Positions 12,960 to 46,109 are shown, counted from the first letter of the stretch. The stretch is DNA of 60,694 bases from a bacterium (GCA_021372775.1 JAJFTU010000402.1:1-60694), one strand, 5' to 3'. Notes: generated from the sequence alone by a model not told the origin. Made by a program: numbers and translations.

Positions 12960-12966
12960 GGGGGCC

Positions 12967-17268: not shown

Positions 17269-17277
17269 CGTCGGCTC

Positions 17278-28022: not shown

Positions 28023-28026
28023 GATC

Positions 28027-30919: not shown

Positions 30920-33900
30920 TCAGTGAATCGTCGGTTTCCCAAGCCCCTGGCGCACGACATTCAACATTCGTGCGTAGAGCGCGTTCAGCTTCGCGCGCCG
31001 GTCGTCCGGCGAGAGCCGCGGGTCCTCGAACGCCTTGTTGACCTGCTGGCTCAGGGTCCTCAGTCGGGTCTCGGCGAACGCGATCCGGGCGGCCGTCAAC
31101 CGCGCGTCGCCGCCGTACTCGGCGTCCAGTTCCCGCGTCCGCGCCTTCGCCTTGGCGGTGTCCCCGCTCGCGCGATACTCGTCCACGCTCCGCAGCGCGC
31201 CCCGCAGCGCGTCCCGCGTCTCGTAGAACTCCTGGAACGACTGCGCGTCGGCCCGCGGGGTCTCCCGGTAGAAGGCACTCACGAACGGGGCTCGGGCCAG
31301 GCCGCCAGACGGCCGCTTGTCCTTCGCGATCCCGGTCGCGGAGAGCCCGGCATCGGTCGCGCCTTCGATCCCGCGCCCGAGGCCGGCGGTGTAGCCGTAG
31401 ACCAGGTGGTCGAACTTCGCGGGCGCCATCCTAAGCTTCGGCGCGATGAGCTTCGCGGCCTCGCTCGTCCAGCGCCCCGCCTGCAGCTCCGGGTCGAGGG
31501 TTGTATCGTAGGGGTTGACGATGCTCCGGCCGCGGAACGTGTCGTAGTTCACCGCCGCTTCTAACGCCGGGACGATGGCGGTCGGCGTGATCGACAGGAT
31601 CACGTTCCACGCGCTCGACGCGCCGCCCGGGAAGAGGCGGTCGGCCACCTTCTTGTCCTTCCCGCTCATGTAGTCCATCGCGGCTTCGAAGAACGAGCCG
31701 AAGATCATCCCGATCTCGAACGGCTTGGGGATGCGGGCCCAATCGTGCCCGTGCGCACGGCCAAGCGGCACGTGCCAATACGTGTTCCGCTCCCACGCCG
31801 GCAGCTCGTGGTAGTCCGGATCGGTGTGGTTGAGATACCAGAGCGCCAGCGACTGGAGCGTGATCCCGATGGTCGCCCGCCAGACGGCCCCGAGTGCTCG
31901 ACGCCGGCGCGGAGACCAATGACCCTTTGGCCCTTCCTTCATCGGAATGGGCGGTTGGCCGTCCCCGCCAAGTGCCTTCCCGCCCGGTCCTGGCGTGCCG
32001 CCTCCGGCCGCGGCATCCATCCCGCCGAACACCTCAGCGAGCCGTGCCCACCCCTGCACCCGCGCGTTGAAGAACGCCGTGTAGCGGTTGGCTTCCTTGC
32101 TATACCGGCCGCCCCGGGCGAAGTCGAGCGTGACGTCACGGGCCGCGAGCGCCGCGCGGGCGTAACCCTCGGCCGTCCGGCCCTCCTTCTCAACGGCCCC
32201 CATGAACTCGCCGAGCCGCGTGGCGACCTCCGTCGCTTCCGAGATCGCCCGCAGCAGTTCGATCGGGTTCCGGACGATGCTCGCGAGGAAGGCCCGGCGC
32301 TGGCTCTTCCCCATCCGCCGGAGTTCCTCCCGGATGCGGTTGCGGTCGGCCGAGACGAGCGCGGCGTTGCCGGCGCCGCTGTTCATGAACTGCTGGTAGA
32401 GTTCCCCGTTGCCCACGAACTCGAACAGCCCGCGCATTGAGTCGTAGCCGAGACGGAAGCCGTACCGCGAGTTGATGTAGGCCGTCCAGGTGTCGCGGAT
32501 GGGGTTCCGGGCTGCGAACGACACCGTCAGCGTGGCGCCGGCGCGCAGCAACCGGGCCGGGCGCATCAGGAGGTTGATGACGAGGTCGGAGTGCTTCGGC
32601 CCGATCGCGGTGATGGCGTCGTAGAGGGCCTGGTCGTTGGCGGCGTACCACTGCCGTTTACCGTCCTGGATGACCGTCACCAGGCCGCCCTTGCCGGTCG
32701 GCATGTAGAGCGGGGTGAAGACCACGGCCGATTCGTCCAGCGCCTCATCGAGGTTGTCCGGCAACTCCACGCCCGCATCCTCCAGCGCCTCACGGATCTG
32801 CGGCGTCAGGCGGGCAAGGTTGAACTTCGTGGCGGCCACGGGCGCGGGCACCTTCTCGAGGAACCGCCCGCCGCCCTCGGTCGATTCGGCCTGCGCGACC
32901 AGGGCCTGCATCGCCCGGTTCGCCTCGACCATGTTCACGAGCGTGTGTGTGTTCCGAATGATGCTCTCGAGCGGGTTGACGATGTCCCGCGTCGAGCCCT
33001 TGATCCGCTTGATGGGCACACTCCGGTTCGCGATCTTGCTCCCGGGGCCCCCACCGAACGCGCCCGAGACGGTGTCCTGCACGCGCTGGTAGGGGACGTA
33101 GTGCGGATTCAGCGCCCGCATCTGGACCGCCTGCTCCGGGGAGACCGCGCCGGCCTGCACCGCATAGTCGATGACGGCGTCCTGGAAGTCGTAGACCGCC
33201 TGGCGCGCCTCGTCGAACTCGGGCGACTGGAATGCGTCGAGGATCGCCTGGGCTTCGTCCGTCGTCATGCCGGCCTTCATCCCGCGCGCCGTCAGGTCGG
33301 CCACGCGGGACGCGACGAGGTAGGCGGCGAACTCGCGCGCCTGGTGCGCGACCGGCTTCAGGGCCGGCTCCAGTCCCTCGGAGAGCTTGGACCCGTCCGG
33401 CAGGCGCACGCCGTTCCGGAGGAAGCCGTCCGCCTTCATCGCCGCGCCCCGGGCGAGACGCGCGAGCGCGTAGCCGTTGCGGAGGATCTGTTCTGGCGTG
33501 CCGAGTTCCTTCACCATCCGACGGATCGGCGCGAGGTCGTCCACCCATGCGGTCTCAAACCGCAGCATCCAGTCGGCCTTCGGGTCAGGCTCCTGGCCGG
33601 TGAAGTCGATACGGGCCAGCCCCCTGGCGATCGAGTCCGCGCCGAGGAATCCGGTGATGAGCGTCCGAGCCTGCTCGATCGAGGCTTTCAACTCGGGCTC
33701 GACTTGCAGCGCGTCCTCGAAGGCGGCCAGGTAGAGCGGCGCCCGATTCTGGGCGGACGCCGGGTCGGACAAGTAGAGCCGCAGGAACTCGGCCTCGCCT
33801 TCCTTGCGCTTCTCGCCGGGGTCGGCGTCCAGTTCCAGGATGTCGGCGCCGAGCGCCTCAAGTTCTTCGGAGTAGGGCCGCCGCCCGCGCCGGAGGTTCA

Positions 33901-36900
33901 GGATCGTCGCGACGTGGTGCCCGAGCTCGTGGCCGATGACCTCGAGGTCGTTCGCCAGCTTCGTCCGCACCACCCGCGCCTTGTGCTTGTAGACCCCGAG
34001 GGCACGCTGGCTGAAATGTCCGGTCTTGATGGGGAGGCCGCCGAACGCCTCCGACAACCGGGCGACGATCTGATGTGGCGACAGGGGCTCCGTCGACGTC
34101 GGTGCCCCGGCGGCCGGCGCCGGGCGCTGGCGCATCGTGGAGACGTCATCGTCAGCCTCAACGTCTTCGCCCTGAGCCTTCGCCTTCCGCCGTTCCTCGG
34201 CGGCCCTGGTGCGCTCCAGCCGCTTGGATTCGGCCGCCTTGTCCTTTTCTTTCCCCTCCTCGCGGAGCTCGGCCTCGAGCTCGGCGATCCGGGCTTCTGC
34301 GGCCTTGGCGCGGCCCACCGTTTCAGGCGGCGAGGCGAGCACCTTGTCTGCCCGCTCGACCTTCCGCTGGACCTCCTGCCGGTCACGCTTGGCGTCCTCG
34401 AGCAGGGCCGGCAGCCCTTCGTAGGCGTCTACGAGTGAGGCGACGAGGTTCCGGCCGGCGCCGAACTCCTTACGGTCCTCGGCGCCGGCGAACACCTCGG
34501 CGACCTTGCGCCACTGGTCCTCGATCGGCGACTTCATGAACAGGACGACGTTGTCTTCCCGATACCCGCGGACGTGGCTCGCGCTCAGCTCCAGGCCGCG
34601 GACGTTGCCGATCGTCGTGTAGGTGACGTGGCGGCCGGCGTAGCCGACGTCCGTCTTGGTCACGGGCCACAAGGCATCGAAGATGGCGGCGTTGGCGTCT
34701 TTGCGGTCGGTGTAGGTCTTCCCGCCGACCGTCACCTCGAACGCCTCGCCGCGCAGCGACCGGAACTGTCCGGTCACCCACTCCCGGAGGCGCCCGATCT
34801 CGTCCTCGAGTGCCGCGTCTTCCCTCTGCCCGCTCGCCTTGTCGGCCTTCGCCCTGGCGATGGCGCGCTCGGCGGCCTGCGCCTGCGCCGAGAGCCGGGC
34901 GAACTTCGACCGCAGGTCGATCAACTCGATGGTGCGCGGGTCGTTCGTGGCGAGGGCCTGCGCTTCCTCGATCGAGAGCGTGGCTGGATCGTCGTCGCGG
35001 AACACCGTGGCGTCACCGCGCATGAAGTCGGTGATGTTCTTCTGTTTCCGGCCGAGCAGCCCATACAGCCACTCGTCGGTGGTGCCGTTGGTGACGTATC
35101 GGATGATTTCGACTTCCTTGTAGACGCCGTTCCCCTGCCGGATGATGCGGCCGTGCCGCTGCCGGATGTCACCCGGGCGCATCGCCCGTGGGGCGTCGAA
35201 TTCCACCTCGAGGCCGAGTCGGGCCTGGATGTTCATGCCCGTGCCGCCCTTGTCCGTCGAGGCCATCAGCACGCGCACGTCGCCACGCCGGGCCGCCTCG
35301 AAGAGCGCCAGGCGCTCGGCCGCGTTGCGGGCCTGGTGGATGAATGCGATCTCGCGGGCCGGAACGCCCTTCTTCACGAGGGCTGCCTTGATAGCCTCGT
35401 AGAGGTTGAACGCGCCGGTCTCCTGAGTCGCCCACTCGTCTTCGTCGCCTTCGATGACTTCGTCCTCGACCCCGAGCGAATCCCCCTCGGTCGAATCCTC
35501 CGCCTTGACGTCCCGGAGGAAGTCGAGCGGGCCCGGGTCCTTCGGCGTGCCGACGTCGCAGAAGACGAGGGCGACGCCCTTGTTCTTCTTCTCCGCCCGC
35601 CAGAACTTCGCGATCCGGTCGGTGGCGTCCTGGAGCCGTGAGCCCTTGTAGTCGGTCGCACGGTTCCCGAGCACCAGGCGGGGGTCGACCGCCGCCAGGC
35701 GCGCGTCGTTCATGATGGTCAGGATGTTGTCGAGCTTCCCGGTCGGCTCGCCCGTGAGCGGGTCCGGCCGCGCCGGCGCGATGTACTCGCGCGTCTGCCG
35801 GTCGACGTGCGGAGGCATGGCCTTCACGTTGGCCAGGCGGTCGGAGAACCAGCGTTTCAACTGCGGGTAGAGTGGGTGCGCCGGCGTCTTGGCGACGTCG
35901 ATCTTCCCGCCCTTCATCGTCGGGAGCTGGAGGTACGGCATGTCCTCCCACCCGACGTAGTCCATGACCTGCGAGACCATCCGATAGAGCAGGTTCAGGT
36001 TCCGGTAGTCGCGGAGGCGGAGGACTTCCTGGTAGCTGCCGTCGGGCCGCTGCTCGGTCGTCGGCAGCGCCGAAGCGAACATGGTGTACCAGTTGTCGAA
36101 GTTCTCGACCCCGTAGTCCCTGAGCGCCTGCGGCTGGAGATACCGCTGCATCGTGAAGATTTCCGCGATGCTGTTCATGATTGGCGTCGCGGTCGCCAGC
36201 ACGAGGTTGCGGTGGCTCGACTGCTCGTTGATGTCCTGCACCTTCACGAAGAGGTCGAGCGCCCGGTCGGATTCGGATCGGCTGAGGCCCCGGATGTTGT
36301 CCATCTTCGAGAAGTAATAGAGGTTCTTGAAGGCGTGGGCCTCGTCGACGAACAGAGCATCGACGCCCAACTGTTCCCACGTCAGCGCGTCGTCCTTCTT
36401 CTTCTCGAGCGATCCCTTCTTCTTGGCGATCTTGTCTTTGATGCGGTCGACGGCCGCGGCGAGTTGCTTTGTGCTCACCGATTTGCCGTCCTCGGCCTTC
36501 GCCTTCAGGTAGGCATCGGTGAGCTCCCGCTCCCACTGCTCGAGCGTCTCGACCAGGCGGGCCGTCGACACCCGGAGCAAGCCGAACGACGAGTGCGGCA
36601 CGAGGACCATGTCCCAATCGCCGAACGCGATCCGGGCCATCGCCTCCTGGCGCTTGTCGGCGCCGAGGTCCTTCTCGTCGAACGCCAGCACCTTGGCCGC
36701 GGGGTAGGCCCGCATGATGTCTTCCCGCCACTGGCCGAGCAGGTGCGTGGGGACCGTGATGAGCGGCTTCCGGGCCCGCCCGGTGCGCCGCATCTCCATC
36801 GCCGTCGCGATCATCGCGAACGTCTTGCCGGCGCCGACCTCGTGCGCGAAGAGCGTGTTCCCCGTGGCGAGCGTGCGCCAGATCACCGCCCGCTGGTGCG

Positions 36901-39900
36901 GGTGCAGGGCGAACGGCAGCGCCAGGCCGGGCAGTGTCAGGTGTGACCCGTCGAAGATCCGGGCCACCGTGCGGTTGAAGCGGGTGTTGAACGTCGACAG
37001 GAGCCGTTGCTGGACGTCCTCGTGCTCCATCACCCACTGCATCCACTGGGATCGGATCTCGTCGAGGTTGCCGCGGGCCGCCAACGTCGCCTTCTCGTCG
37101 CGGACGTAGTGCCGGTTGTCCTTGTCGCCCTCCATCGTGCCGAGGTCCGGCGTCTTCAGGTTCAGCGCGTCGTTGAGCAGGTCGAGGAACCCGTAGGTCT
37201 TCTCCTTGGCCGGACCGTAGGTGACGGCGAGCGCGTGCTGAGTGGAGGCGCGCGTCGCGGTGTGGCTGTTGCCGGACCCGACGGTGACCGACCAGGTCAC
37301 GTAACTCTCGGCGCCCTGGAGCTTCGCGGTGACGGCGTCGTCGCCGAGGCCGAGGGCCTGCGCGACGAAGGCGGCCAGGTCATCCTCGGGCACCCAATGC
37401 GAGCCGAGGGTGATCGAGACGGCGCCGCCGTAAAGGTCGTCGGCGGTCTTGTCGGCCGGCTGCACCGCCCGGAGCGCGTCGACGTTCACCTGGAACTTGG
37501 GGTCGTCTTTGGCCGCGGCCTCGGCGTCGGCCAGCTTCGTCTTGACGTCCCCGCTCAGGTACTCGTCGGCCAGGACGGTGGACCCGTCGGGCTGCTCGAA
37601 GATCCGGCCGAGGTGGGCGAGCTCCGCTTTCAGGGTGTCGATCGGCTGGCCAGAGATCCGCGCCATGTAGGGCCAGTCGATCCGCGTCTTCGTGCCGACC
37701 GAAGCCATCAGGGCGTCCACCGCGGAGTCGGCGTGGTCAATCTCGCGCTCAGCCCGGATGGTTCGCTTCGTGAAGATGTCGTGCTTGGCGACGAACTCGT
37801 GCGTCACGCGCAGCCGTTGCTCGCCGTTCTTCAGCGTCACGACCGCGGCCGTCGGCTTCAGGATCTCGAGCCCGCGGAGGTTGTGAGACTCGGGATCGAT
37901 GTCGAACAGGCGCCGGTTGATCTTGTCGTTCAGTCGCCCGTGGGCCTTGACGAAGCCGTCGTAGGCTTTGCCGAGGGCCCGCTGTGCCTTCGCGATCTCG
38001 GCGTCGGTCGACTCCGTGTTCTCCATCGCGGCCACGGTCGCGCGCAGCGCGTCGCGGACCCCGATCATGCCGGCCACGCGCTTGACCGCGGCCGAGTCGA
38101 CGACCTCCGACTTCGTCTTCTGGTTCTTCCGGGTCGGGGTGTGGTCGACGATCTGGCCGTCGCTCGTGACACGGTCGATGCGGCCCTTGGCCGGGCTTAC
38201 GCGCAGCTCGTTGACCTTGTAGCTGTCCTTGTCGGCCATGCGCGGCGCCGGCGCCGGTGCCGTGGCGCTCGTCGTCGCGGGCACGTAGGACCCGGGGGGC
38301 AGGAGTGTGGCGAGGGCCGTGCGCAAGTCTCCGGTGACGTCGTCGCTCTTGGCGGTGACGGTATATTCCCCGGACCCGTACATCGTGCCTTCGGTGCTCT
38401 CCTTCCCGAGGACCAGGTCGGGATGCGCCGTGTACCACGCGGAGCGGTAGACGTTGTTCTCGCGAGACTTCCGATTGCGGCCCCACCCGCTCGAGGATGT
38501 CGTCGAGAGGTCCTCGGCCTTCGGCGCCTCGATGAAGAGGTCCGCGTTGCGCGCGACCTTCTCATCCGGCATGAACCGCTGGAGCACAACCAGGTCGGTG
38601 ACGACCTCCGTCTTCGCGCTCTTGTCGAACGCGCTGTTCGGCAGGCGGACGGCGCCGACAAAGTGCGCCCGCTCCATCAGGTAGCGCCGGAAGCCCGTCG
38701 CCTCGGCTCCGTCCATGGTGTAGCGGGACGTCAGGAAGACGATGAGCCCGCCCGGGCGCACGTGCTGCATCGCCTTCGCGAAGAAGTAATTGTGCAGGGG
38801 CTTCGTGAGGAACTTCTGCGCGCCGGCAAACTCCGGGTCCTCGACGCCCGTGTCCGCGAAGGGCACGTTGGAGATGACGAGGTCCTGTGTGCCCCGTGCG
38901 ACTCGGGCGTCCTGGTAGCCGACCGCGTGCACGCGAGCCCTTGGGTAGAGCGCCTGTGCGATGGCGGCCGTCATCGGCTCGAGCTCGACGGCGGAGAGCG
39001 TGGAGGCGGCGCGCACATCGCCGGGCATGAGGCCGAAGGCGTGACCCGTGCCGACGGCCGGCTCGAGCACGCGCCCGCCCGTGAATCCGGCCGCCGCGAG
39101 CACGTCCCACACGGGCCGATATAGGTCGTAGGTGAAATGGGCGTTGCGCGTCGAGTGGAACGCGGAGTCGCGCTCGGCCTCCGACAGCAGCGACCGGAGG
39201 TCCTGCCACACGGCGGTCTGGTTCGCGCTCCAGCCGTAGTCGGGCGTGGTCGTCCGCGGGTCGACGTACTCGGCGAGGTCGGACGCGCCCCATCCGACGT
39301 AGCGGGCGAGCACGTCCTGCTCGTCGGGCGTCGCGTACCGCTTCTCGGTCTGGAGAGTCTTGACGAGGCGGATCGCCTCGACGTTGCCGCGCGCCCGCTC
39401 GAGTGGGCCGCGCTTGATGATGGCCTGAACGCGCTCAGGAGTGAGTTGGTAGTCGGGAGCCTTTACGCCTGGGTCGTGGGTGTCTCCGGCGGGGGATAGA
39501 GCCACTCGTTCCGGTAGCGCGTCCACGCTTCCGCGTCGGTCAGCTTCGGATCCCTCGCCTGCGCCAGCAGGCTGCTGTACTCCGTTCGGTGCCACGCGGC
39601 CCGAATCGCTCGGTCGAGTGCCAACGGCCCCTGGCTCTCCAGTTGCTTCGACAGGTTCGGCAGGAACCGCTGCCAATACGCCTTCGCGTCTAGCTCCCGC
39701 GGGCCGAGGGGTTCCGCCTCCACGCTCGGCGGGTTGTCCGGGTCGTACACGCCCACTATCTCTGACATTGGCGGCCTCCCCTTCTGAGGATACCGTAGGG
39801 CCACCTTCCGCCGGAGTCAAGGCCGGCGCGGCGGTCGCAAGAGAATTGCCCTCGAGGAGGTCGTTCGCCCAATCCATTTCGCCGAGGTACCACGGACTCC

Positions 39901-42900
39901 CCATCTCCGAACCGACCCTGTGTGAGTAGTCGATGACCGATGAGATGTAGGCCCGCAGGGTATCCTCGGTGATCGTCTTCGGACGAGCCGGCCGCACCAG
40001 CGCCGTTTTGCCCTCGAGGGCGTCGGCCGCCTTCGTGAGCGCGGCGGCGGCGTCTTTCAAGGCGGAGGCGGCCGGATGAGCAGCCGCCGGCGCCGTCGGC
40101 TCGCCGGCTCTCTCTTTTTCCCGGCGTTCCCGTTCCGAGGTGATGTCGGCCTGGATCGCCTCGATGCGGCTCTTCTCTTCCGCCGTGAGGGTCGGGTCCT
40201 CAAGACCGTCGGTGACGTTGCGCGCCAACGTGTCGAACGCTTTGTCGTCCAACTGGCCGAGGCCGTTCACGCCCCAATACGGGGCCTTGGTGCGATGCAC
40301 TCGGTCTGCGATGTTGATCGCGGTGTCGGCCGCTTCCCGCCGCTTGGCCTTTTCCTTGTCCGACAACTCGGGTGCGGGGGCCGGCTTGTCCTCCGCCGCG
40401 ATCTTGGCGGTCGCCATCTCCAGCCAACCCCGCCAGTTTTCGGCCTCGTGAGCGTTGAGCCTCGGGAGCGCCTCCGACAGGTCATCCCGAAATTGGCGCA
40501 GCTCCTTGCCCGACAAGTGCTCCACGCCGTTGCCGGCGTGCTCGTTGATGACGGCCTCCGCGCGTGCGCGGGCCGATAGTTCCGCGGTGCTCTGCGGTCC
40601 GGTCGCTTGCGAGTGGGGAACTTCACCGACCGGTCTCTTCTGTCCCCCACCGACATACTCGCCTTCGGGCGTCACCTGGTTGGTCGCGGCCGGCGCCTGC
40701 CAACCCTTCGCGGGTTCGGCCGGCTGCGCCCGCCGAGCCTCGATGCGCTTGACGGCCGCCAGCGTCTCGGTCTTGTCAGGCGCGGTCGAGTGGCTGCGCG
40801 GACGTGCGCCGGTAAGCGGGTTGCCTTCCTTGTCGCTCTCGACGACCTCGACGCTCCAGTCGTGGTCAGCGGTCGCGGGGTGGTAGGCGAGGACCTTGTC
40901 CCACTTGCCCCAATAGTCGCTGTAGACGACCGCCCCTGGCCGATACACCTCGGCGCGGAGATCAGCGGGCGTGACCTTCTTCGGCTTCTTCGGGGCCTTC
41001 ACAGTGGCTTTCAGGCTCGCCGCCACCGCGGGGGACTTCGCCGAGGCTTCTTCCTCGGCCTCGAGCTTCGCCAGGTGCTGCGGGTAGTCGTCGGCCAGCT
41101 TCGCCATCTTCTCCATGAAGGTGTGCGAGCCGACCTGGTCCGGCGTGTATTTCTTCGACTCGTTCCATGCCTGGCGGTACTGCCGGGAGAACTCGTCGTA
41201 AGTCAGCGTCGGTGCCGCTGGCGCGCCTGTGACTGCGAGCTCGGGCACGGCCTCTTTCGGCCGCGGTTTCGACACGCCGCGTTCCTTCTTCCGCTTTCCG
41301 GCCTCGGCGTCGGCCTCGGCCTCGGTCGCCCCGAATCCGACAGAGGCGCCAATCTCCCGGTCGCCGACCTGGCCGAGGCCGGCCGTCTTGAGTGCCGTGC
41401 TCACCGCGGCCTCGACCCGATCGCGCAGGCCCGTCAGGTCGCCACCGGTTCCCGGCTGCAGGGCGACGTTGAGCGCGAACTCATCGCCGCCGACGCGCGC
41501 GACGACGTCGCCAGGACGAAGGGTCTGCCGTAGCGCGTCAGCGACGACCTGCAGCGCCCGGTCGCCTTCGGAGTGGCCGAGGGTGTCGTTGACCGCCTTG
41601 AAGTTGTCGAGGTCGATGCGGGCCCACGCCCGGCCCGGTTCCTGTTTCTTCGCCCTGCGGTTGAGCCCGTTCATGTTGAACAGGTTGGTCAGCGGGTCAC
41701 GCTCGGCATCGTCGAAGAAGCCCTTGCCGACGTCGGCCTGTCCCTCGGCGACCGTGGCCTGCAGGCGCGCCAGAGCGTCGATCCCTCTCTGCACCCTGGC
41801 AGGGACCGGTGCGGTCTCCTGCGGCATCGTGACCGCGCCCGGAGCCGCAGCCGGCGCGGGTACCGGCGCGGCCGTCGCTTCAGCAGAAGCGGGTGTCGTC
41901 ACGGTCGGGGCCGGCGGCGCGGGCGCGACCTGTTGGGCCACCGCCGGCGCTGAGCCGACGACCGATACGCGCACATCGGGCGACGGCTGCGCGGGCCGCT
42001 TGACGCTGAACTGGTCGGTCGTCGGGTTGTACTCGACCGGCGACGGGCCTTCCGTTGGCAACTCGGGCGCGGGTGTCTTGACCGGCGCCGCCTGAATCTC
42101 GACCGCCCGGCGCTGCGCGGCCACCTTCGCGGTGATGTCGGCCTCGCTCAGCCCGCGGGCTTTCAACTCGCCGAGCGCAACTTGGGCCTCCGTCGACGTC
42201 GCCAGCTTCCTCGAGGGTGTGTTCGCGATCTCGCGTACGAGCATGTCGATCGTCGGCGGGGCTTGCGGGTTCCCGATGTCGAGCACGGCGCCAGGCGTCG
42301 AGGGCTTTGGCACCGGGGCCTGCCACTGAATCGTCTGAGGCGTGCGGGTGGTGTCCAACTCGCCGAACGGAATCGTCTTCGCGCCGGGAATCTCGCCGGG
42401 ACCGTAGAGCCGCGAGAGAATCGTGCCGACCTGAATCGCCTTCTTGGTTCCCGCCGCCACCTGAGCGACGCGCTTCGCGCCGCCGGCCGCGGCGATCGTG
42501 GCCGCGAGGTTGGAGACGAACCGTTGCTCCTCGGGCGACGCACCGGACAACTCGGCGGCCTTGCCCGCGCCCGCGCCCGCGAGATAACTCGTGCCGAGCG
42601 CCAGCAGGGTTTCCGGTAGGGCGAGCACGAGGCCCGCAGCCACGGCCGGAGTCGCAGCCTTGCCGGTGCCCTCCATCATGTCGGACCAGGCGTTGAGCGC
42701 CTTCTTGTCGACCTCGGGCCGACGGTCCTGGACGTACAACTGCCCCGTCCGGCTCCTGGCCATGACCGTTCCGGGCGTGCCCGGCGCCGGCGTGGGAGCC
42801 ATCGCGATTTCTCCCGACACCTTCGCGCCTTGCACGAACTGCTGCACGCCTCTCGCGGGGGTCGAAATAATGTCGTCGATGGTCTGAGAGGGCGGCCCCT

Positions 42901-43531
42901 GCACGTACAGTTGACCCGTGCGGCTTCGCGCCATGACCGTACCGGGCGGGAGCGCAGGCGGCGCCAGCGGAACGCCGCCACTGGACGGCGCGTGCATCAC
43001 CGCGAGCCTTTCCGGCAGGGGCGTGTCGTTGCTGAAGAGCGTCCGCGCTTCGGCGATGGGGTCCGACTTGCCAAACAGGGTCCGCGCCTCCGCGAGCGGA
43101 TCGCCGGCAGGCTCGGGCGCCAACCGCCCCTCGATCTTCTCGACGTAGTCCTGTGTCTCCGTGAAGGGCGGAACGCCGCCATGCCGCTCGACGGCCTCGG
43201 GGCCGGCGTTGTACGCCGCGAGGGCCAGGCGCCGGTTGCCGCCGAACCGGTCCAGCATCTGCCGCAGGTAGAGCACGCCGCCCTTGATGTTGTCGTCCGG
43301 GTCGTTGGGGTCGACTCCCAGGTCACGCGCCGTACCTGGCATCAACTGCATGGACCCGACCGCGCCCTTCGGCGACCGGGCACGGGGGTTCCCACCGGAC
43401 TCGGTCTGAATCACCGCCCGCACGAGATCCACGGGCACACCGTAGGCCGCCGCGTATCGGTCGGCGGGGTCGGTCGGCGCCCCAAGAGTCGCGCGGGCGT
43501 CACGAACGGGATCGGCGGTCTCGGGTTCCAT
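30920..43531 (-). CDS. giant multi-domain (polyvalent) virion/ejection protein, 4203 aa
   Basis: Uninterrupted ATG-initiated ORF carrying SLT, GGDEF, N6-adenine MTase, SF2 helicase and HELGHH motifs. Sits where P22 has its ejection-protein genes. Confidence 0.85.
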   Translation of the reverse strand: MEPETADPVRDARATLGAPTDPADRYAAAYGVPVDLVRAVIQTESGGNPRARSPKGAVGSMQLMPGTARDLGVDPNDPDDNIKGGVLYLRQMLDRFGGNRRLALAAYNAGPEAVERHGGVPPFTETQDYVEKIEGRLAPEPAGDPLAEARTLFGKSDPIAEARTLFSNDTPLPERLAVMHAPSSGGVPLAPPALPPGTVMARSRTGQLYVQGPPSQTIDDIISTPARGVQQFVQGAKVSGEIAMAPTPAPGTPGTVMARSRTGQLYVQDRRPEVDKKALNAWSDMMEGTGKAATPAVAAGLVLALPETLLALGTSYLAGAGAGKAAELSGASPEEQRFVSNLAATIAAAGGAKRVAQVAAGTKKAIQVGTILSRLYGPGEIPGAKTIPFGELDTTRTPQTIQWQAPVPKPSTPGAVLDIGNPQAPPTIDMLVREIANTPSRKLATSTEAQVALGELKARGLSEADITAKVAAQRRAVEIQAAPVKTPAPELPTEGPSPVEYNPTTDQFSVKRPAQPSPDVRVSVVGSAPAVAQQVAPAPPAPTVTTPASAEATAAPVPAPAAAPGAVTMPQETAPVPARVQRGIDALARLQATVAEGQADVGKGFFDDAERDPLTNLFNMNGLNRRAKKQEPGRAWARIDLDNFKAVNDTLGHSEGDRALQVVADALRQTLRPGDVVARVGGDEFALNVALQPGTGGDLTGLRDRVEAAVSTALKTAGLGQVGDREIGASVGFGATEAEADAEAGKRKKERGVSKPRPKEAVPELAVTGAPAAPTLTYDEFSRQYRQAWNESKKYTPDQVGSHTFMEKMAKLADDYPQHLAKLEAEEEASAKSPAVAASLKATVKAPKKPKKVTPADLRAEVYRPGAVVYSDYWGKWDKVLAYHPATADHDWSVEVVESDKEGNPLTGARPRSHSTAPDKTETLAAVKRIEARRAQPAEPAKGWQAPAATNQVTPEGEYVGGGQKRPVGEVPHSQATGPQSTAELSARARAEAVINEHAGNGVEHLSGKELRQFRDDLSEALPRLNAHEAENWRGWLEMATAKIAAEDKPAPAPELSDKEKAKRREAADTAINIADRVHRTKAPYWGVNGLGQLDDKAFDTLARNVTDGLEDPTLTAEEKSRIEAIQADITSERERREKERAGEPTAPAAAHPAASALKDAAAALTKAADALEGKTALVRPARPKTITEDTLRAYISSVIDYSHRVGSEMGSPWYLGEMDWANDLLEGNSLATAAPALTPAEGGPTVSSEGEAANVRDSGRVRPGQPAERGGGTPRPAGARREGVLAAVPAEPVEATGEPGAVGTRPSDSGRVAPNGVQQPAGAGEGSEADRRGSVDALPERVALSPAGDTHDPGVKAPDYQLTPERVQAIIKRGPLERARGNVEAIRLVKTLQTEKRYATPDEQDVLARYVGWGASDLAEYVDPRTTTPDYGWSANQTAVWQDLRSLLSEAERDSAFHSTRNAHFTYDLYRPVWDVLAAAGFTGGRVLEPAVGTGHAFGLMPGDVRAASTLSAVELEPMTAAIAQALYPRARVHAVGYQDARVARGTQDLVISNVPFADTGVEDPEFAGAQKFLTKPLHNYFFAKAMQHVRPGGLIVFLTSRYTMDGAEATGFRRYLMERAHFVGAVRLPNSAFDKSAKTEVVTDLVVLQRFMPDEKVARNADLFIEAPKAEDLSTTSSSGWGRNRKSRENNVYRSAWYTAHPDLVLGKESTEGTMYGSGEYTVTAKSDDVTGDLRTALATLLPPGSYVPATTSATAPAPAPRMADKDSYKVNELRVSPAKGRIDRVTSDGQIVDHTPTRKNQKTKSEVVDSAAVKRVAGMIGVRDALRATVAAMENTESTDAEIAKAQRALGKAYDGFVKAHGRLNDKINRRLFDIDPESHNLRGLEILKPTAAVVTLKNGEQRLRVTHEFVAKHDIFTKRTIRAEREIDHADSAVDALMASVGTKTRIDWPYMARISGQPIDTLKAELAHLGRIFEQPDGSTVLADEYLSGDVKTKLADAEAAAKDDPKFQVNVDALRAVQPADKTADDLYGGAVSITLGSHWVPEDDLAAFVAQALGLGDDAVTAKLQGAESYVTWSVTVGSGNSHTATRASTQHALAVTYGPAKEKTYGFLDLLNDALNLKTPDLGTMEGDKDNRHYVRDEKATLAARGNLDEIRSQWMQWVMEHEDVQQRLLSTFNTRFNRTVARIFDGSHLTLPGLALPFALHPHQRAVIWRTLATGNTLFAHEVGAGKTFAMIATAMEMRRTGRARKPLITVPTHLLGQWREDIMRAYPAAKVLAFDEKDLGADKRQEAMARIAFGDWDMVLVPHSSFGLLRVSTARLVETLEQWERELTDAYLKAKAEDGKSVSTKQLAAAVDRIKDKIAKKKGSLEKKKDDALTWEQLGVDALFVDEAHAFKNLYYFSKMDNIRGLSRSESDRALDLFVKVQDINEQSSHRNLVLATATPIMNSIAEIFTMQRYLQPQALRDYGVENFDNWYTMFASALPTTEQRPDGSYQEVLRLRDYRNLNLLYRMVSQVMDYVGWEDMPYLQLPTMKGGKIDVAKTPAHPLYPQLKRWFSDRLANVKAMPPHVDRQTREYIAPARPDPLTGEPTGKLDNILTIMNDARLAAVDPRLVLGNRATDYKGSRLQDATDRIAKFWRAEKKNKGVALVFCDVGTPKDPGPLDFLRDVKAEDSTEGDSLGVEDEVIEGDEDEWATQETGAFNLYEAIKAALVKKGVPAREIAFIHQARNAAERLALFEAARRGDVRVLMASTDKGGTGMNIQARLGLEVEFDAPRAMRPGDIRQRHGRIIRQGNGVYKEVEIIRYVTNGTTDEWLYGLLGRKQKNITDFMRGDATVFRDDDPATLSIEEAQALATNDPRTIELIDLRSKFARLSAQAQAAERAIARAKADKASGQREDAALEDEIGRLREWVTGQFRSLRGEAFEVTVGGKTYTDRKDANAAIFDALWPVTKTDVGYAGRHVTYTTIGNVRGLELSASHVRGYREDNVVLFMKSPIEDQWRKVAEVFAGAEDRKEFGAGRNLVASLVDAYEGLPALLEDAKRDRQEVQRKVERADKVLASPPETVGRAKAAEARIAELEAELREEGKEKDKAAESKRLERTRAAEERRKAKAQGEDVEADDDVSTMRQRPAPAAGAPTSTEPLSPHQIVARLSEAFGGLPIKTGHFSQRALGVYKHKARVVRTKLANDLEVIGHELGHHVATILNLRRGRRPYSEELEALGADILELDADPGEKRKEGEAEFLRLYLSDPASAQNRAPLYLAAFEDALQVEPELKASIEQARTLITGFLGADSIARGLARIDFTGQEPDPKADWMLRFETAWVDDLAPIRRMVKELGTPEQILRNGYALARLARGAAMKADGFLRNGVRLPDGSKLSEGLEPALKPVAHQAREFAAYLVASRVADLTARGMKAGMTTDEAQAILDAFQSPEFDEARQAVYDFQDAVIDYAVQAGAVSPEQAVQMRALNPHYVPYQRVQDTVSGAFGGGPGSKIANRSVPIKRIKGSTRDIVNPLESIIRNTHTLVNMVEANRAMQALVAQAESTEGGGRFLEKVPAPVAATKFNLARLTPQIREALEDAGVELPDNLDEALDESAVVFTPLYMPTGKGGLVTVIQDGKRQWYAANDQALYDAITAIGPKHSDLVINLLMRPARLLRAGATLTVSFAARNPIRDTWTAYINSRYGFRLGYDSMRGLFEFVGNGELYQQFMNSGAGNAALVSADRNRIREELRRMGKSQRRAFLASIVRNPIELLRAISEATEVATRLGEFMGAVEKEGRTAEGYARAALAARDVTLDFARGGRYSKEANRYTAFFNARVQGWARLAEVFGGMDAAAGGGTPGPGGKALGGDGQPPIPMKEGPKGHWSPRRRRALGAVWRATIGITLQSLALWYLNHTDPDYHELPAWERNTYWHVPLGRAHGHDWARIPKPFEIGMIFGSFFEAAMDYMSGKDKKVADRLFPGGASSAWNVILSITPTAIVPALEAAVNYDTFRGRSIVNPYDTTLDPELQAGRWTSEAAKLIAPKLRMAPAKFDHLVYGYTAGLGRGIEGATDAGLSATGIAKDKRPSGGLARAPFVSAFYRETPRADAQSFQEFYETRDALRGALRSVDEYRASGDTAKAKARTRELDAEYGGDARLTAARIAFAETRLRTLSQQVNKAFEDPRLSPDDRRAKLNALYARMLNVVRQGLGKPTIH
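33914..33931 (-). other. HExxH zincin motif within the giant protein
   Basis: LEVIGHELGHHVATIL. Confidence 0.5.
35129..36909 (-). other. SF2 (SNF2/DEAH-like) helicase domain of the giant protein
   Basis: HPHQ, HEVGAGKT (36818-36850), FVDEAHAFKN (36329-36352), LVLATATP, STDKGGTGMN, QRHGRIIRQGN (35129-35165). Confidence 0.8.
38570..39460 (-). other. N6-adenine DNA methyltransferase domain of the giant protein
   Basis: Motif I VLEPAVGTGHAF (about 39043-39075) and motif IV ISNVPFAD (about 38858-38869). Together with the helicase this resembles the P1 DarB architecture (from memory). Confidence 0.75.
39463..39768 (-). CDS. 101-aa ORF embedded out of frame inside the giant ORF
   Basis: GGGAGG-6 nt-ATG. 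By hand count about 86% G/C at codon position 3 in this frame versus about 50% in the giant frame over the same bases. Globular-looking sequence MSEIVGVYDPDNPP...WTRYRNEWLYPPPETPTTQA. Confidence 0.5.
   Translation of the reverse strand: MSEIVGVYDPDNPPSVEAEPLGPRELDAKAYWQRFLPNLSKQLESQGPLALDRAIRAAWHRTEYSSLLAQARDPKLTDAEAWTRYRNEWLYPPPETPTTQA
39792..39820 (-). promoter_or_regulatory. sigma70-like promoter candidate for the embedded ORF
   Basis: Minus strand reads TTGACT (39820-39815)-17 nt-TACGGT (39797-39792), about 24 nt upstream of ATG 39768. Confidence 0.3.
41318..41698 (-). other. GGDEF (diguanylate cyclase) domain of the giant protein
   Basis: DPLTNLFNMNGL...ARIDLDNFKAVNDTLGHSEGDRAL...RPGDVVARVGGDEFAL...SVGFG. 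GGDEF codons at 41477-41491. RxxD lies 5 residues upstream. Confidence 0.8.
43136..43453 (-). other. lytic transglycosylase (SLT) domain of the giant protein
   Basis: VIQTESGGNPRARSPKGAVGSMQLMPGTA...LAAYNAGPEAV. Confidence 0.8.
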
Positions 43532-45642: not shown

Positions 45643-46107
45643 CTACTGAACGAGCGTCGCGCCCTTGGCGACGTAGTGGCTCGCGACGCGCCGCGGCACG
45701 GCCTGCTGGCTGCCGTCAGGCGCCCGCAACAGGACCATCTCGATGTCGGCCGGCTCTCCGCCGTTCTGCCTGGCGACGGTACGCGTCGACCGCATGGTGT
45801 CCATGAACGGGCCGGGTCTCGGGGCCCGCGTCGTCGACGTGCCACCGTCCGTGATCTGCTTCGCCGCCGGCGCCGGCCGGAAGCCCATGAGCGCCGAGAG
45901 CGTCTGATTCGCCTGGTTCCCAGACGTCACCCACGGCTGGAGGTCGGCCCGGCGCGTGGTGAACATCTCGCGCTGGAGCGCCAGCGCGTCACTCGCGGAT
46001 TTCTGCTGAATGTCAGCCGCCTCGCCGGCGGAGTGCGCCGCGATGGCCGCTCCGCCGACGGACCCGGCGGGACCGATGATGGCTGGCAGGAAGGGGGCAA
46101 CCGGCAT
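45643..46107 (-). CDS. internal virion protein candidate (154 aa)
   Basis: Trimmed to ATG 46107. Hydrophobic N-terminus MPVAPFLPAIIGPAGSVGGAAIAA. Confidence 0.45.
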   Translation of the reverse strand: MPVAPFLPAIIGPAGSVGGAAIAAHSAGEAADIQQKSASDALALQREMFTTRRADLQPWVTSGNQANQTLSALMGFRPAPAAKQITDGGTSTTRAPRPGPFMDTMRSTRTVARQNGGEPADIEMVLLRAPDGSQQAVPRRVASHYVAKGATLVQ

Positions 46108-46109
46108 AG

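What the first reader, a model, noticed from the sequence alone, without database searches (positions are those of the whole stretch)
30920..43531. 12.6-kb single ORF: giant multi-enzyme virion/ejection protein
One uninterrupted 4203-codon ORF takes 20.8% of the window. It lies after gp4-like and gp10-like neck genes and three internal-protein-like genes, which is where P22 keeps its ejection proteins. Motifs read directly from the translation are: an N-terminal lytic transglycosylase, a GGDEF domain, an N6-adenine methyltransferase (VLEPAVGTGHAF, NVPF), an SF2 helicase (GAGKT, DEAH, QRHGRIIRQGN), a HELGHH motif, and a C-terminal region of about 900 aa with no call. The methyltransferase-plus-helicase pair is the architecture I recall for the phage P1 DarB anti-restriction protein. 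Fusions of this general kind have been described as polyvalent proteins of phages and conjugative elements. I do not recognise this exact combination. It suggests a protein injected with the DNA that breaches peptidoglycan, modifies or remodels DNA and manipulates host signalling.
Basis: partly seen in the sequence, partly recalled or inferred. Interest (0 to 1): 0.85.

Follow-up and report, generated by a model that had tools for sequence, protein, structure and literature searches.

The report
Giant phage ejection protein, nested gene
The 12.6-kb ORF is real and encodes a known kind of giant multi-enzyme "polyvalent" protein that phages are thought to inject with their DNA; the unexpected part is a conserved, unannotated ~100-codon gene in its +1 frame just before the anti-restriction module.

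Summary
Observation confirmed. Window 30920-43531 (-) is one 4203-codon ORF with coding-type composition. It sits in a P22-like structural module after the adaptor, head-closure and ejection-like genes.

The "uncalled" C-terminus is a conserved ~1070-aa module containing LPD38. In relatives this module carries different N-terminal cargo.

The protein is therefore a new member of the polyvalent, DarB-like giant proteins (Iyer 2017; Bcep22 gp75; Pavtok gp27). GGDEF is a rare cargo but has been described before.

New result: codons ~1255-1356 overlap a +1-frame gene at 39463-39768 (-), with GGAGG and ATG. It is the only stretch of the ORF whose codon usage prefers another frame.
- It has about 50 homologues, including free-standing ones.
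- It folds confidently (pLDDT 89).
- It recurs at the same position and frame in giant genes of Erwinia, Klebsiella, Vibrio, Pseudomonas, Agrobacterium, Sinorhizobium, Ochrobactrum and Microcystis phages, unannotated as a separate gene in the records fetched.
- Both frames are kept open beyond chance.

Its function is unknown. I infer that it is a partner of the DarB module.

The parts
30920..43531 (-). Giant ORF of 4203 codons, encoding a polyvalent DarB-like putative ejection protein
43175..43462 (-). SLT lytic transglycosylase domain (aa 24-119). Catalytic E44-S45; GSMQLMP and AYNAG motifs present
   Evidence: Pfam PF01464 E=6.8e-25; PDB Slt70 hits; motifs read
42386..43030 (-). N-terminal segment (aa 168-382) shared with the closest chassis relatives. 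It holds the only strongly hydrophobic stretch (aa 296-314) and the duplicated peptides GTVMARSRTGQLYVQ (x2) and AEARTLF (x2)
   Evidence: BLASTP to P0124/P0127/P0128; hydropathy; repeats
41384..41704 (-). GGDEF diguanylate-cyclase domain (Pfam aa 610-716; PDB alignments extend it to about aa 582-756). Motifs: DLDNFKAVNDTLGHSEGD and RPGD-x5-GGDEF
   Evidence: PF00990 1.2e-19, TIGR00254 3.9e-20; about 50 PDB diguanylate cyclases; motifs
39464..39814 (-). Low-complexity G/P/A/R/E/S linker of the giant protein (aa ~1240-1356), which overlaps the nested gene
39463..39768 (-). Nested gene in the +1 frame of the giant ORF: 101 aa, ATG at 39768, stop at 39463-39465. Predicted four-helix protein of an uncharacterised family
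   Evidence: codon-position GC flip and log-odds frame scan; 50 homologues; pLDDT 89; syntenic copies in other giant genes
39775..39783 (-). Shine-Dalgarno sequence AAGGGGAGG, 6 nt upstream of the nested gene's ATG
34154..40282 (-). DarB-like core (aa 1084-3126): LPD36-like region with YVGWGA (aa 1411), N6-adenine MTase (motif I EPAVGTG 1490, motif IV NVPF 1555) and an SNF2-type helicase
   Evidence: phrog_10089 E=0; 30-35% identity over 80-86% to the giant proteins of PEp14, Atu_ph08, SopranoGao, VvAW1, Gamede and others; motifs; weak PDB hits to lmo1582 and EcoKI M
34982..36910 (-). SNF2/SF2 helicase (aa 2208-2850): GAGKT 2233, DEAH 2396, QRHGRIIRQG 2791
   Evidence: PF00176, PF04851, PF00271; PADLOC helicase models
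30923..34123 (-). Conserved C-terminal 'chassis' module (aa 3137-4203), found at the C-termini of large proteins in podovirus structural modules
   Evidence: 48-51% identity over ~99% to P0121-P0126; phage hits; AF2 model pLDDT 72 with no PDB fold match
33752..34084 (-). Zincin-like metallopeptidase motif region (HELGHH; H3201, E3202, H3205, E3244)
   Evidence: invariant or nearly invariant columns H75, E76, H79, E118 of alignment A1; weak local Foldseek hits to ImmA/IrrE-type proteases
31334..31822 (-). LPD38 domain (aa 3904-4066)
   Evidence: PF18857 E=2.8e-36

Best explanation
The ORF encodes one giant 'polyvalent' protein of a P22-like podovirus.

Shown by sequence: it consists of a conserved scaffold and swappable enzymatic cargo.
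- Scaffold: an N-terminal SLT lytic transglycosylase, a hydrophobic N-terminal segment, and a ~1070-aa C-terminal module (zincin peptidase motif, helical body, LPD38). This scaffold recurs in relatives.
- Cargo: a GGDEF diguanylate cyclase with intact catalytic and inhibitory sites, and a DarB-type LPD36 / N6-adenine methyltransferase / SNF2 helicase module.

Inferred from gene position and from homologues:
- The protein is packaged in the capsid and ejected with the DNA.
- The SLT domain opens peptidoglycan.
- The peptidase may cut the polyprotein into working pieces.
- The DarB-like module acts on the incoming DNA in cis to blunt restriction.
- The GGDEF domain makes c-di-GMP to perturb host signalling or rival elements.

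Shown by comparative sequence analysis: the linker just upstream of the DarB-like module is dual-coding. A separate 101-codon gene in the +1 frame, with its own Shine-Dalgarno sequence and ATG, encodes a small helical protein of a conserved, uncharacterised family. This gene sits at the same position and frame in distantly related giant genes.

Inferred: the small protein is made alongside the giant protein and works with the DarB-like module, for example as an assembly or packaging helper or as an inhibitor in the producing cell.
For: ORF and coding signal.

Domains.

Structural-module context: with a P22-like portal.

Same architecture in Bcep22 gp75 (SLT, MTase, helicase, LPD38) and in Pavtok gp27.

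Virion association of homologues: JC1 gp69 (4515 aa) gave 51 unique peptides from CsCl-purified virions (PMC9144972). P1 DarB is described as a head component that protects DNA in cis (PMC5512222).

Scaffold plus variable cargo: the C-terminal module is ~50% identical in proteins of 1154-1883 aa whose N-termini carry Zeta_toxin, DdrB-ParB, InPase, lysozyme or GGDEF instead. It also forms the C-terminus of the large protein in the tail/ejection gene block of Pelagibacter HTVC204P, Vibrio 1.211.A and Bacillus Palmer.

Nested gene:
- It is the only region of the 4203 codons that prefers another frame, and the GC1/GC3 values flip there.
- GGAGG lies 6 nt before the ATG.
- 50 homologues at E<=1e-3, 20 of them at <=1e-10, most about 100 aa long and aligned end to end.
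- Free-standing copies occur in unrelated contexts.
- AF2 gives pLDDT 89.3 and pTM 0.79.
- Homologues in the same +1 frame lie just upstream of the DarB core in L014, PEp14, Pavtok, VvAW1, SopranoGao, Itty13, POI1126, Atu_ph08, Mwe-JY07 and PBC5. hhalign between the two clades gives probability 97.9%.
- Under synonymous shuffling of the nested gene, the giant frame stays open with probability 0.025 here and <0.0002 to 0.23 in ten other loci, yet it is open in all of them.
- Substitutions favour the nested frame: against L011, 8 synonymous/5 non-synonymous versus 3/12; PEp14 against Pavtok, 15/15 versus 7/21.
Against: - No direct evidence exists for this phage: no virion proteomics, no activity data, no reads.
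- MTase motif IV is NVPF rather than NPPF, so activity is not certain.
- GGDEF enzymes need to dimerise, and nothing here shows that this one does.
- The chassis model has no PDB fold match, so its role in ejection rests only on gene position.
- Peptidase self-processing is a published proposal, not a result.
- For the nested gene there is no expression data and no family, fold or literature match.
- The substitution counts are small.
- The giant-frame translation of the overlap also shows some conservation (33% versus 40% mean identity), as expected when two frames share the same bases.
- In PBC5 the small domain is in frame with the upstream ORF. That leaves a different mode of expression open.
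Confidence: 0.78

Rival explanations
1. The small domain is not made from its own start codon. Instead, ribosomes translating the upstream part of the giant ORF shift into the +1 frame and terminate at 39463. This would give a shorter product (SLT-GGDEF-X plus the small domain) alongside the full-length protein, analogous to other phage frameshift pairs.
For: In Sinorhizobium phage PBC5 the 2197-codon upstream ORF is in frame with the small domain and stops at its stop codon. The DarB-like ORF there overlaps it in the -1 frame by about 577 nt. BFVD places the fold at the C-terminus of that PBC5 protein.
Against: In the window the +1 frame has a stop only 16 codons upstream of the ATG, and I saw no slippery motif in the sequence read. 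The nested ORFs keep a conserved ATG ('MNLNNW...' in eight phages) with SD-like purine tracts 5-9 nt upstream. Free-standing homologues exist. The PBC5 arrangement could be a single-base error in a 2001 sequence.
Confidence: 0.1
2. The giant ORF is not one polypeptide in vivo. It would be two or three genes (an N-terminal SLT-GGDEF protein, the small gene, and a DarB-like-chassis protein) that read as one ORF through stop-codon loss or an assembly error.
For: GC3 differs between aa 1-1200 (~0.85) and aa 1400-4203 (~0.93), which suggests a mosaic origin. A gene caller split the related contig L011 at this point. PBC5 is split there. By my estimate an alternate frame in 68% GC DNA can stay open by chance about 2-25% of the time.
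Against: There is no stop in frame 0 anywhere. The independent contig L011 (88% nt identity) and the loci L014 and L026 are also continuous through the overlap, as are nine cultured-phage genes. That is far beyond chance. Bcep22 gp75 and Pavtok gp27 also join SLT to the DarB core in one ORF. phrog_10089 aligns across the junction (aa 1084-3126).
Confidence: 0.07
3. The nested ORF is a selfish or decaying passenger: a small mobile cassette that lodged in a tolerant linker. It would have no role in the function of the giant protein.
For: Free-standing homologues sit in unrelated contexts, next to an integrase in L028 and next to sugar-metabolism genes in L024. Other +1-frame coding signals occur in linkers of Bcep22, Gamede, Pavtok and Atu_ph08 giant genes, including a 184-aa ORF with a strong SD in Gamede. 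Linkers therefore seem to accept inserts.
Against: The position is fixed: always immediately upstream of the LPD36-MTase-helicase module and always in frame +1. This holds across phages of eight host genera with 50-69% GC, while the cargo on the other side changes. It is absent from plasmid records apart from one 59-kb replicon with a POI1126-like copy. The fold is confident and the substitution pattern is purifying.
Confidence: 0.12
4. The protein is not packaged or ejected. It acts late in the cytoplasm or during lysis, for example as a methylase of progeny DNA plus a lysis-associated transglycosylase.
For: There are no virion data for this phage, and no PDB-level similarity of the chassis to known ejection proteins.
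Against: The gene sits inside the head-tail-ejection block, 3 nt after the preceding structural-block gene. Homologous giant proteins are found in purified virions. [quoted passage not shown] The protein has only 1 Cys in 4203 residues; I suggest this suits a protein that must unfold and cross the periplasm, but that is my inference.
Confidence: 0.08

Closest known systems
Burkholderia phage Bcep22 gp75 (4602 aa) and JC1 gp69 (4515 aa), 'DarB-like antirestriction' giant virion proteins of Lessievirus podophages
   Same: Same order of parts: N-terminal SLT, MTase, SNF2 helicase, LPD38 near the C-terminus. The gene is similarly large, about 21-22% of a ~60-kb high-GC podovirus genome, and lies in the structural module. 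JC1 gp69 was detected in virions. Bcep22 also has a +1-frame ORF with SD and ATG just upstream of the DarB core.
   Different: Only 31% identity, confined to the core. gp75 has LPD3 and no GGDEF. The C-terminal regions align only weakly (23% over ~410 aa). The Bcep22 nested ORF is not demonstrably homologous to the one here (hhalign probability 18%). The head genes also differ: the portal here is P22-like and nearest to small aquatic podoviruses.
Phage P1 DarB (2255 aa)
   Same: N6-adenine MTase plus SF2/SNF2 helicase dyad. Archetype of the module.
   Different: P1 DarB is the dyad alone, in a myovirus, and depends on separate Dar proteins. I found no nested homologue in P1 darB, and Ulx is unrelated by HMM. 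Whether this phage has DarA/Hdf-type helpers was not tested.
Polyvalent proteins of phages and conjugative elements (Iyer, Burroughs, Anand, de Souza, Aravind 2017), e.g. Acetonema longum WP_004096050.1
   Same: Many unrelated enzymatic domains in one polypeptide next to packaging genes. The hallmark parts are present: zincin MPTase, LPD36-MTase-SNF2, LPD38. GGDEF is already noted there as a rare cargo.
   Different: This exact set (SLT + GGDEF + dyad + MPTase + LPD38) was not found in the searches run here. The paper does not mention overlapping or nested genes.
Erwinia phage Pavtok gp27 (5007 aa, called the longest known phage protein) and relatives: PEp14, SopranoGao 'PLxRFG protein', Atu_ph08, POI1126, VvAW1, Itty13
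   Same: SLT at the N-terminus and a DarB core 33% identical to the one here. They carry a homologous nested +1 gene at the same place.
   Different: Their C-terminal domains are LPD37/LPD39 rather than the LPD38 chassis, and they have no GGDEF.
Rz/Rz1 spanin genes of lambda-like phages (a gene wholly embedded in the +1 frame of another); comparison from my own knowledge
   Same: A complete small gene with its own start inside a larger gene, in the +1 frame, and co-transcribed late.
   Different: The nested protein here has no signal peptide, lipobox or Cys, is unrelated in sequence, and lies in a disordered linker of a 4203-codon gene rather than in a spanin.
T7 gp16 and P22 gp7/gp20/gp16 ejection proteins (from my own knowledge; P22 from PMC8402733)
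   Same: Same position after the head-completion genes. An N-terminal lytic transglycosylase on a large internal protein, as in T7 gp16. Presumed exit through the portal with the DNA.
   Different: No sequence or fold similarity to them was detected. This protein is three or more times larger and carries DNA-modifying and signalling enzymes.

Membership tests
Polyvalent proteins (Iyer et al. 2017) | Two or more biochemically unrelated effector domains in one polypeptide | tested here: met
   SLT, GGDEF, MTase, SNF2 helicase, zincin motif and LPD38 in one stop-free ORF
Polyvalent proteins (Iyer et al. 2017) | Encoded next to phage packaging or structural (late) genes | tested here: met
   TerL, portal, major head protein, adaptor, Hc3 and ejection-like genes lie upstream on the same strand
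Polyvalent proteins (Iyer et al. 2017) | Hallmark domains: zincin MPTase, LPD36-MTase-SNF2 module, phage-only LPD38 | tested here: met
   HExxH...E conserved; YVGWGA, motifs I and IV, helicase motifs; PF18857 3e-36
Polyvalent proteins (Iyer et al. 2017) | Delivered into the recipient cell with the DNA | not testable with these tools
   Inferred only, from homologues found in virions
DarB-like antirestriction proteins | Gamma-class N6-adenine MTase fused to a C-terminal SF2/SNF2 helicase | tested here: met
   phrog_10089 E=0, phrog_11801 2e-177; tblastn to DarB-like proteins; motifs. Motif IV is NVPF, not NPPF
DarB-like antirestriction proteins | Packaged in the virion | not testable with these tools
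   Needs virion mass spectrometry
DarB-like antirestriction proteins | Protects incoming DNA in cis from type I restriction | not testable with these tools
   Needs plating assays
DarB-like antirestriction proteins | Accessory Dar proteins (DarA, Hdf, DdrA, Ulx) as in P1 | not tested
   Only Ulx was compared, and only with the nested protein: no similarity
GGDEF diguanylate cyclases | GG(D/E)EF active site, metal-binding Asp, and guanine-contacting Asn and Asp | tested here: met
   RIDLDNFKAVNDTLGHSEGD and RVGGDEF read; PF00990 and TIGR00254. The roles of these residues are from my knowledge of PleD/WspR
GGDEF diguanylate cyclases | RxxD inhibitory site 5 residues before GGDEF (present in many members, not all) | tested here: met
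   RPGD-VVARV-GGDEF at aa 672-685
GGDEF diguanylate cyclases | Dimerisation and c-di-GMP synthesis | not testable with these tools
   Needs an enzyme assay
Family 1 lytic transglycosylases (SLT) | Catalytic Glu-Ser motif plus GLMQ-like and AYNAG motifs | tested here: met
   TESGG (E44), GSMQLMP and AAYNAGP read; PF01464 7e-25
Zincin-like metallopeptidases | HExxH with a downstream Glu ligand | tested here: met
   H3201, E3202, H3205, E3244 conserved in 25 sequences
Zincin-like metallopeptidases | Zincin fold | tested here: inconclusive
   Only weak local Foldseek matches to ImmA/IrrE-type proteins (6cz6, 8sln; E>2)
Overlapping (nested) protein-coding genes | Both reading frames open, and kept open beyond chance | tested here: met
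   P(open) is 0.025 here and <0.0002-0.23 in ten other loci, and all are open. The third frame has 2-8 stops
Overlapping (nested) protein-coding genes | Independent evidence that the inner frame encodes a protein | tested here: met
   Codon usage, homologues including free-standing ones, AF2 pLDDT 89, substitution pattern
Overlapping (nested) protein-coding genes | Own translation start | tested here: met
   AAGGGGAGG-N6-ATG; ATG plus SD-like tracts in the other loci
Overlapping (nested) protein-coding genes | The product is actually made | not testable with these tools
   Needs ribosome profiling or mass spectrometry

The most novel reading that the evidence does not exclude
Giant DarB-like polyvalent genes of many tailed phages carry a hidden second gene. 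It is a ~100-aa helical protein overprinted in the +1 frame of the linker just before the LPD36-MTase-helicase module. It has been conserved from Microcystis to Erwinia phages and was not annotated as a separate gene in any record fetched here. If it is translated and is a dedicated partner of the DarB-like module (a packaging chaperone, a producer-cell inhibitor, or a co-injected anti-defence factor), it would be a missing component of a widespread phage counter-defence system. It would also be a clear case of long-term dual coding maintained inside a 12-kb gene.
Probability: 0.55. Interest if true: 0.78.

Novelty: new variant of a known kind. Interest (0 to 1): 0.62.

Why it matters
The giant protein adds a well-preserved example to a known class, and one with a rare cargo: a GGDEF domain with intact active and inhibitory sites riding on an ejection-protein scaffold. 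This makes testable the idea that a phage delivers a second-messenger synthase at the moment of entry.

The comparison also shows a simple building rule. A conserved N-terminal piece and a ~1070-aa C-terminal module carry interchangeable enzymes. That rule is useful for annotating metagenomic phages.

The nested gene matters more. It was not annotated as a separate gene in any phage record I fetched, including those of cultured phages that can be manipulated genetically (Pavtok, PEp14, SopranoGao, Atu_ph08, VvAW1, Itty13). It is tied to the DarB-type anti-restriction module, whose mechanism is still unclear. Gene callers that pick it break the giant gene instead, as happened in L011. A silent-in-one-frame mutation would directly test what it does.

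Tried and rejected
- A full-length homologue search timed out. Megablast against phages found nothing.
- The N-terminal 1100 aa recovered only SLT-domain proteins, none covering more than 19%. No close full-length relative was found.
- Fold search of the C-terminal chassis against the PDB gave no significant match.
- The nested protein has no hit in PHROGs, Pfam, PADLOC, PDB sequences or PDB folds.
- I considered that the frame anomaly was a pair of compensating sequencing errors. I rejected this because the anomaly starts at an SD-ATG and ends at a stop, and because the independent contigs L011 and L014 and cultured phages show the same layout.
- I considered that the nested protein is P1 Ulx or a nested element of P1 darB. 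I rejected this.
- I tested whether the Bcep22/Gamede +1 ORFs at the same position belong to the same family. The result was inconclusive: hhalign probability 18%, and a sub-threshold TnpV hit at E=0.045.
- By eye I took a second nested ORF in Gamede for an HNH endonuclease. Pfam did not support this.
- DNA-level repeat search found nothing notable inside the ORF. There are no tRNAs in the window.
- Gill et al. 2011 could not be read.
- Literature searches found no report of the nested gene. That is not proof that none exists.
Full report
**1. The observation**

The window holds an uninterrupted ORF at 30920-43531 on the minus strand: 4203 codons with an ATG start. The window is 66-71% GC, so long spurious ORFs are common. 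Even so, the next longest ORFs are 841 and 813 aa, both real genes. Third-position GC along the giant ORF is 0.84-0.94, as in the window's confident genes.

**2. Context**

Nearly all genes run on the minus strand. Upstream of the giant ORF, in order, are:
- large terminase, 59256-60680;
- portal, 55172-57613 (phrog_156, 5e-110);
- major head protein, 52612-53862;
- an adaptor-like gene, 49659-50387;
- head-closure Hc3, 48537-49655 (3e-67);
- a further Hc3-like fragment, 46489-47055;
- two 'DNA ejection' genes (phrog_598), 45643-46452 and 44879-45634;
- an unknown 441-aa gene that ends 3 nt before the giant ATG.

Downstream lie a virion structural protein and an SGNH-type esterase. The portal is P22-like.

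**3. Domain anatomy**

Pfam:

| Domain | Residues | E-value |
|---|---|---|
| SLT | 24-119 | 7e-25 |
| GGDEF | 610-716 | 1e-19 |
| Eco57I-type MTase | 1547-1629 | 0.007 (weak) |
| SNF2 / ResIII | 2208-2450 | 3e-11 / 4e-06 |
| Helicase_C | 2725-2800 | 8e-06 |
| LPD38 | 3904-4066 | 3e-36 |

- PHROGs gives phrog_10089 'DarB-like antirestriction' with E=0 over aa 1084-3126, and phrog_11801 'DNA methyltransferase' at 2e-177.
- The GGDEF domain matches about 50 solved diguanylate cyclases over aa 582-756. It keeps DLDNFKAVNDTLGHSEGD, RVGGDEF and an RPGD I-site five residues upstream. It therefore looks catalytically competent and GTP-specific. The residue roles come from my knowledge of PleD/WspR.
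- The MTase has motif I (EPAVGTG). Its motif IV is NVPF where Bcep22 and Pavtok have NPPF. The variant is shared with the 53%-identical L014 protein.
- YVGWGA at aa 1411 matches the GxGU signature that Iyer et al. give for LPD36.
- HELGHH is the HExxH of a zincin-type peptidase. In an alignment of 25 homologues, H75 is invariant and E76, H79 and E118 are at least 90% conserved (residues 3201, 3202, 3205 and 3244).
- The protein has a single Cys and one strongly hydrophobic stretch, at aa 296-314.

**4. A scaffold with interchangeable cargo**

The last 1070 residues are 48-51% identical, over ~99% of their length, to the C-termini of metagenomic proteins of only 1154-1883 aa. Several of these proteins also share aa 168-382 of the N-terminal region. 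Between or before these parts the relatives carry other domains: Zeta_toxin, DdrB-ParB, InPase, Phage_lysozyme2 and, in P0143, a GGDEF domain.

In cultured phages the same module forms the C-terminus of the largest protein of the tail/internal-protein block:
- Pelagibacter HTVC204P gp40, which follows tail tubular A/B and internal virion proteins;
- Bacillus Palmer gp20;
- Vibrio 1.211.A gene 14, which is followed by SGNH esterases, as in this window.

An AF2 model of the module (pLDDT 72) is mostly helical. It has no significant PDB match. Only weak local hits fall on ImmA/IrrE-type metalloproteases at the HExxH region.

I read the C-terminal module as the conserved structural part and the enzymes as cargo. 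That reading is an inference from gene position and distribution.

**5. What is already known**

The MTase-helicase core is 30-35% identical, over 80-86% of its length, to the giant proteins of Erwinia PEp14/Pavtok, Agrobacterium Atu_ph08, Klebsiella SopranoGao, Vibrio VvAW1, Ochrobactrum POI1126, Pseudomonas Itty13, Ralstonia phages and Bcep22.

- Bcep22 gp75 (4602 aa) has the same order of parts: SLT, MTase, helicase, LPD3, LPD38. Pavtok gp27 (5007 aa) has SLT, MTase, helicase, LPD37, LPD39.
- The Bcep22-like phage JC1 gave 51 unique peptides of its 4515-aa homologue from purified virions (PMC9144972).
- Pavtok gp27 is cited as the longest known phage protein and a putative ejection protein (PMC8402733).
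- Iyer et al. 2017 define the class as polyvalent proteins. They describe the LPD36-MTase-SNF2 module, and they propose the zincin peptidase as a self-processing device. They list LPD38 as phage-only, and they note rare GGDEF cargo, including a GGDEF+SNF2+MTase+MPTase+ART protein (PMC5512222).

The exact combination was not found: no protein covered more than 19% of the N-terminal 1100 aa, and there was no nucleotide-level match among phages.

**6. The unexpected feature: a nested gene**

A codon-position profile showed GC3 falling to 0.44-0.56 and GC1 rising to 0.86 between codons ~1240 and 1350. This is the signature of coding in the +1 frame. A log-odds scan with the window's own codon usage found this to be the only place in the 4203 codons where another frame wins.

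The +1 frame there holds a 101-codon ORF at 39463-39768 (-). It begins ATG and is preceded by AAGGGGAGG with a 6-nt spacer. The giant-frame translation over the same bases is a G/P/A/R/E/S-rich linker between the last globular-looking segment and the LPD36-like region.

Evidence that the inner frame encodes a real protein:
- (a) An exhaustive HMMER search found 50 homologues at E<=1e-3, 20 of them at <=1e-10. Most are 95-115 aa long and align end to end. They share the motif PDNxPS..EPL.P.EL.AKAHW.RFLP...GP.ALD.AIR.A..R.EY...LFPPPE.
- (b) AF2 gives a confident four-helix fold, with pLDDT 89.3 and pTM 0.79.
- (c) Free-standing copies exist where no long ORF overlaps them: beside sugar-metabolism genes in an Acidobacteria MAG, and near an integrase in a metagenome contig.
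- (d) A 95%-identical copy lies on an independent contig, L011, which is 88% identical in DNA. There both frames are open, and the 16 differences in the overlap give 8 synonymous/5 non-synonymous codon changes in the nested frame against 3/12 in the giant frame. PEp14 against Pavtok gives 15/15 against 7/21.

**7. The nesting is conserved**

In IMG/VR contig L014, a 43%-identical homologue with GAAGGAG and ATG lies in the +1 frame of a 3655-codon ORF. It sits just upstream of a DarB core that is 53% identical to the one here, and it shows the same GC flip. That giant protein carries InPase instead of SLT/GGDEF and has no LPD38 hit.

A profile of the family then hit the DNA of the giant genes of PEp14, Pavtok, VvAW1, SopranoGao, Itty13, POI1126, Atu_ph08 and Mwe-JY07 (E 1e-8 to 1e-11). 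In every case the hit lies immediately upstream of the core and in frame +1, and the third frame has 4-8 stops. These copies are 102-132 aa long, start 'MNLNNW..QA..HWKE' (POI1126: MEAFQNW) and have SD-like tracts. hhalign links the two clades at probability 97.9% (E 4e-13).

tblastn finds 21 phage records in all, adding PBC5, LASTA, SJM3 and Stean. None of the records lists the small ORF as a separate gene.

I resampled synonymous codons of the nested gene to ask how often the giant frame would stay open by chance:

| Locus | P(giant frame open) |
|---|---|
| window | 0.025 |
| L014 | 0.17 |
| L026 | 0.18 |
| PEp14 | 0.06 |
| Pavtok | 0.02 |
| VvAW1 | <0.0002 |
| SopranoGao | 0.003 |
| Itty13 | 0.23 |
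| POI1126 | 0.02 |
| Atu_ph08 | 0.016 |
| Mwe-JY07 | 0.10 |

It is open in all eleven, so both frames are maintained.

Bcep22 and Ralstonia Gamede lack a detectable homologue. They do, however, show a +1 coding signal and an SD-ATG ORF of ~107 aa at the same position. Homology of that ORF to the family is unproven.

PBC5 is the one exception in layout. Its upstream ORF is in frame with the small domain and ends at its stop codon. The DarB-like ORF overlaps it in the -1 frame. This is consistent with the single BFVD fold match. It may be an old sequencing error or a real alternative arrangement.

**8. Mechanism**

Shown:
- the domain content;
- the conserved scaffold;
- the late-gene context;
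- the dual-coding linker.

Inferred:
- packaging and ejection with the DNA, from virion detection of homologues;
- peptidoglycan cleavage by the SLT domain;
- self-processing by the peptidase, a published proposal;
- cis protection or modification of entering DNA by the DarB-like module;
- c-di-GMP synthesis by the GGDEF domain;
- a role for the nested protein as a partner of the DarB-like module. The reason is that it keeps its position next to that module while the cargo on the other side changes.

Its net charge is mildly acidic by my count, and its function is open. A helper for folding or packaging, or an inhibitor that keeps the module quiet in the producing cell, seem the most economical guesses.

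**9. Verdict**

As a polyvalent DarB-like ejection protein it is a new member of a known kind, with a rare GGDEF cargo.

The nested +1 gene appears to be undescribed. I found no annotation of it as a separate gene in the records fetched, no family, and nothing in the papers searched. It is what lifts the finding above the ordinary.

Noticed in passing
window 39463-39768 (-): A 101-codon gene nested in the +1 frame of the giant ORF, with its own SD and ATG. It is conserved at the same place in many phage giant genes and was not annotated as a separate gene in any record fetched. It is now part of the main finding.
   Followed up: yes
window 42728-42772 and 42899-42943 (-); 43034-43054 and 43073-43093 (-): Two identical 15-aa peptides (GTVMARSRTGQLYVQ, aa 197-211 and 254-268) and two AEARTLF heptads (aa 147-153 and 160-166). 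Their DNA copies differ at 9/45 and 5/21 positions, all silent. The repeats are therefore kept at the protein level. Their function is unknown.
   Followed up: partly
window 30920-43531 (-): Only 1 cysteine (C2658) in 4203 residues. Separately, GC3 is ~0.85 for aa 1-1200 but ~0.93 for aa 1400-4203. This suggests that the N-terminal cargo and the DarB-chassis part have different histories.
   Followed up: no
L034 (Sinorhizobium phage PBC5, AF448724) 2716-9309 and 8733-18308: In PBC5 the giant gene is deposited as two ORFs that overlap by about 577 nt. The upstream ORF reads in frame into the small 'nested' domain and stops at its stop codon. This is either a single-base error or a real split or frameshift arrangement.
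   Followed up: partly
L009 (Bcep22) 27338-27661; L022 (Ralstonia phage Gamede) ~2316-2639 and ~1011-1565: Bcep22 gp75 and the Gamede giant gene also hold +1-frame ORFs with strong SD-ATG just upstream of the DarB core (107 aa, 43% identical to each other). Further +1 coding signals occur elsewhere in these genes, including a 184-aa ORF in Gamede. Linkers of giant genes may commonly host nested genes.
   Followed up: partly
L001 (Pseudomonas phage AN14) 5953-6423; L002 (phage BL8): Yuaviruses and Bordetella phages encode a small stand-alone GGDEF-like protein (~156 aa). In the two Yuavirus loci examined it lies directly next to an annotated antirestriction gene. This is a second association of phage GGDEF domains with counter-defence loci.
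   Followed up: no
L020 (Pseudomonas phage Itty13, MW460249) 1-9512: The GenBank record annotates three long 'hypothetical proteins' on the strand opposite to the DarB-like giant ORF, which is itself open for more than 3170 codons. This is probably an antisense miscall in high-GC DNA.
   Followed up: no
window 50384-51463 (-) and 26793-28073 (-): A DNA-methyltransferase-like gene (phrog_2675) sits inside the head-tail block, between the head and adaptor genes. An SGNH/lysophospholipase-type esterase lies a few genes downstream of the giant ORF, and esterases likewise follow the homologous gene in Vibrio phage 1.211.A.
   Followed up: no
L011 (ENA contig k141_1042292) 1-860: A close relative (88% nt identity downstream) has entirely different sequence upstream of the nested gene, and lacks aa ~1176-1225 of the window protein. 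Cargo has therefore been exchanged recently, right at the nested-gene boundary.
   Followed up: partly
NZ_CP137607.1 (Brucella pseudintermedia, 59 kb 'plasmid') 14742-15047: This is the only plasmid-collection hit to the nested-gene family. The hit lies under a PLxRFG giant gene and most resembles POI1126 (53% identity), so the replicon is probably a phage-plasmid or an episomal prophage.
   Followed up: no
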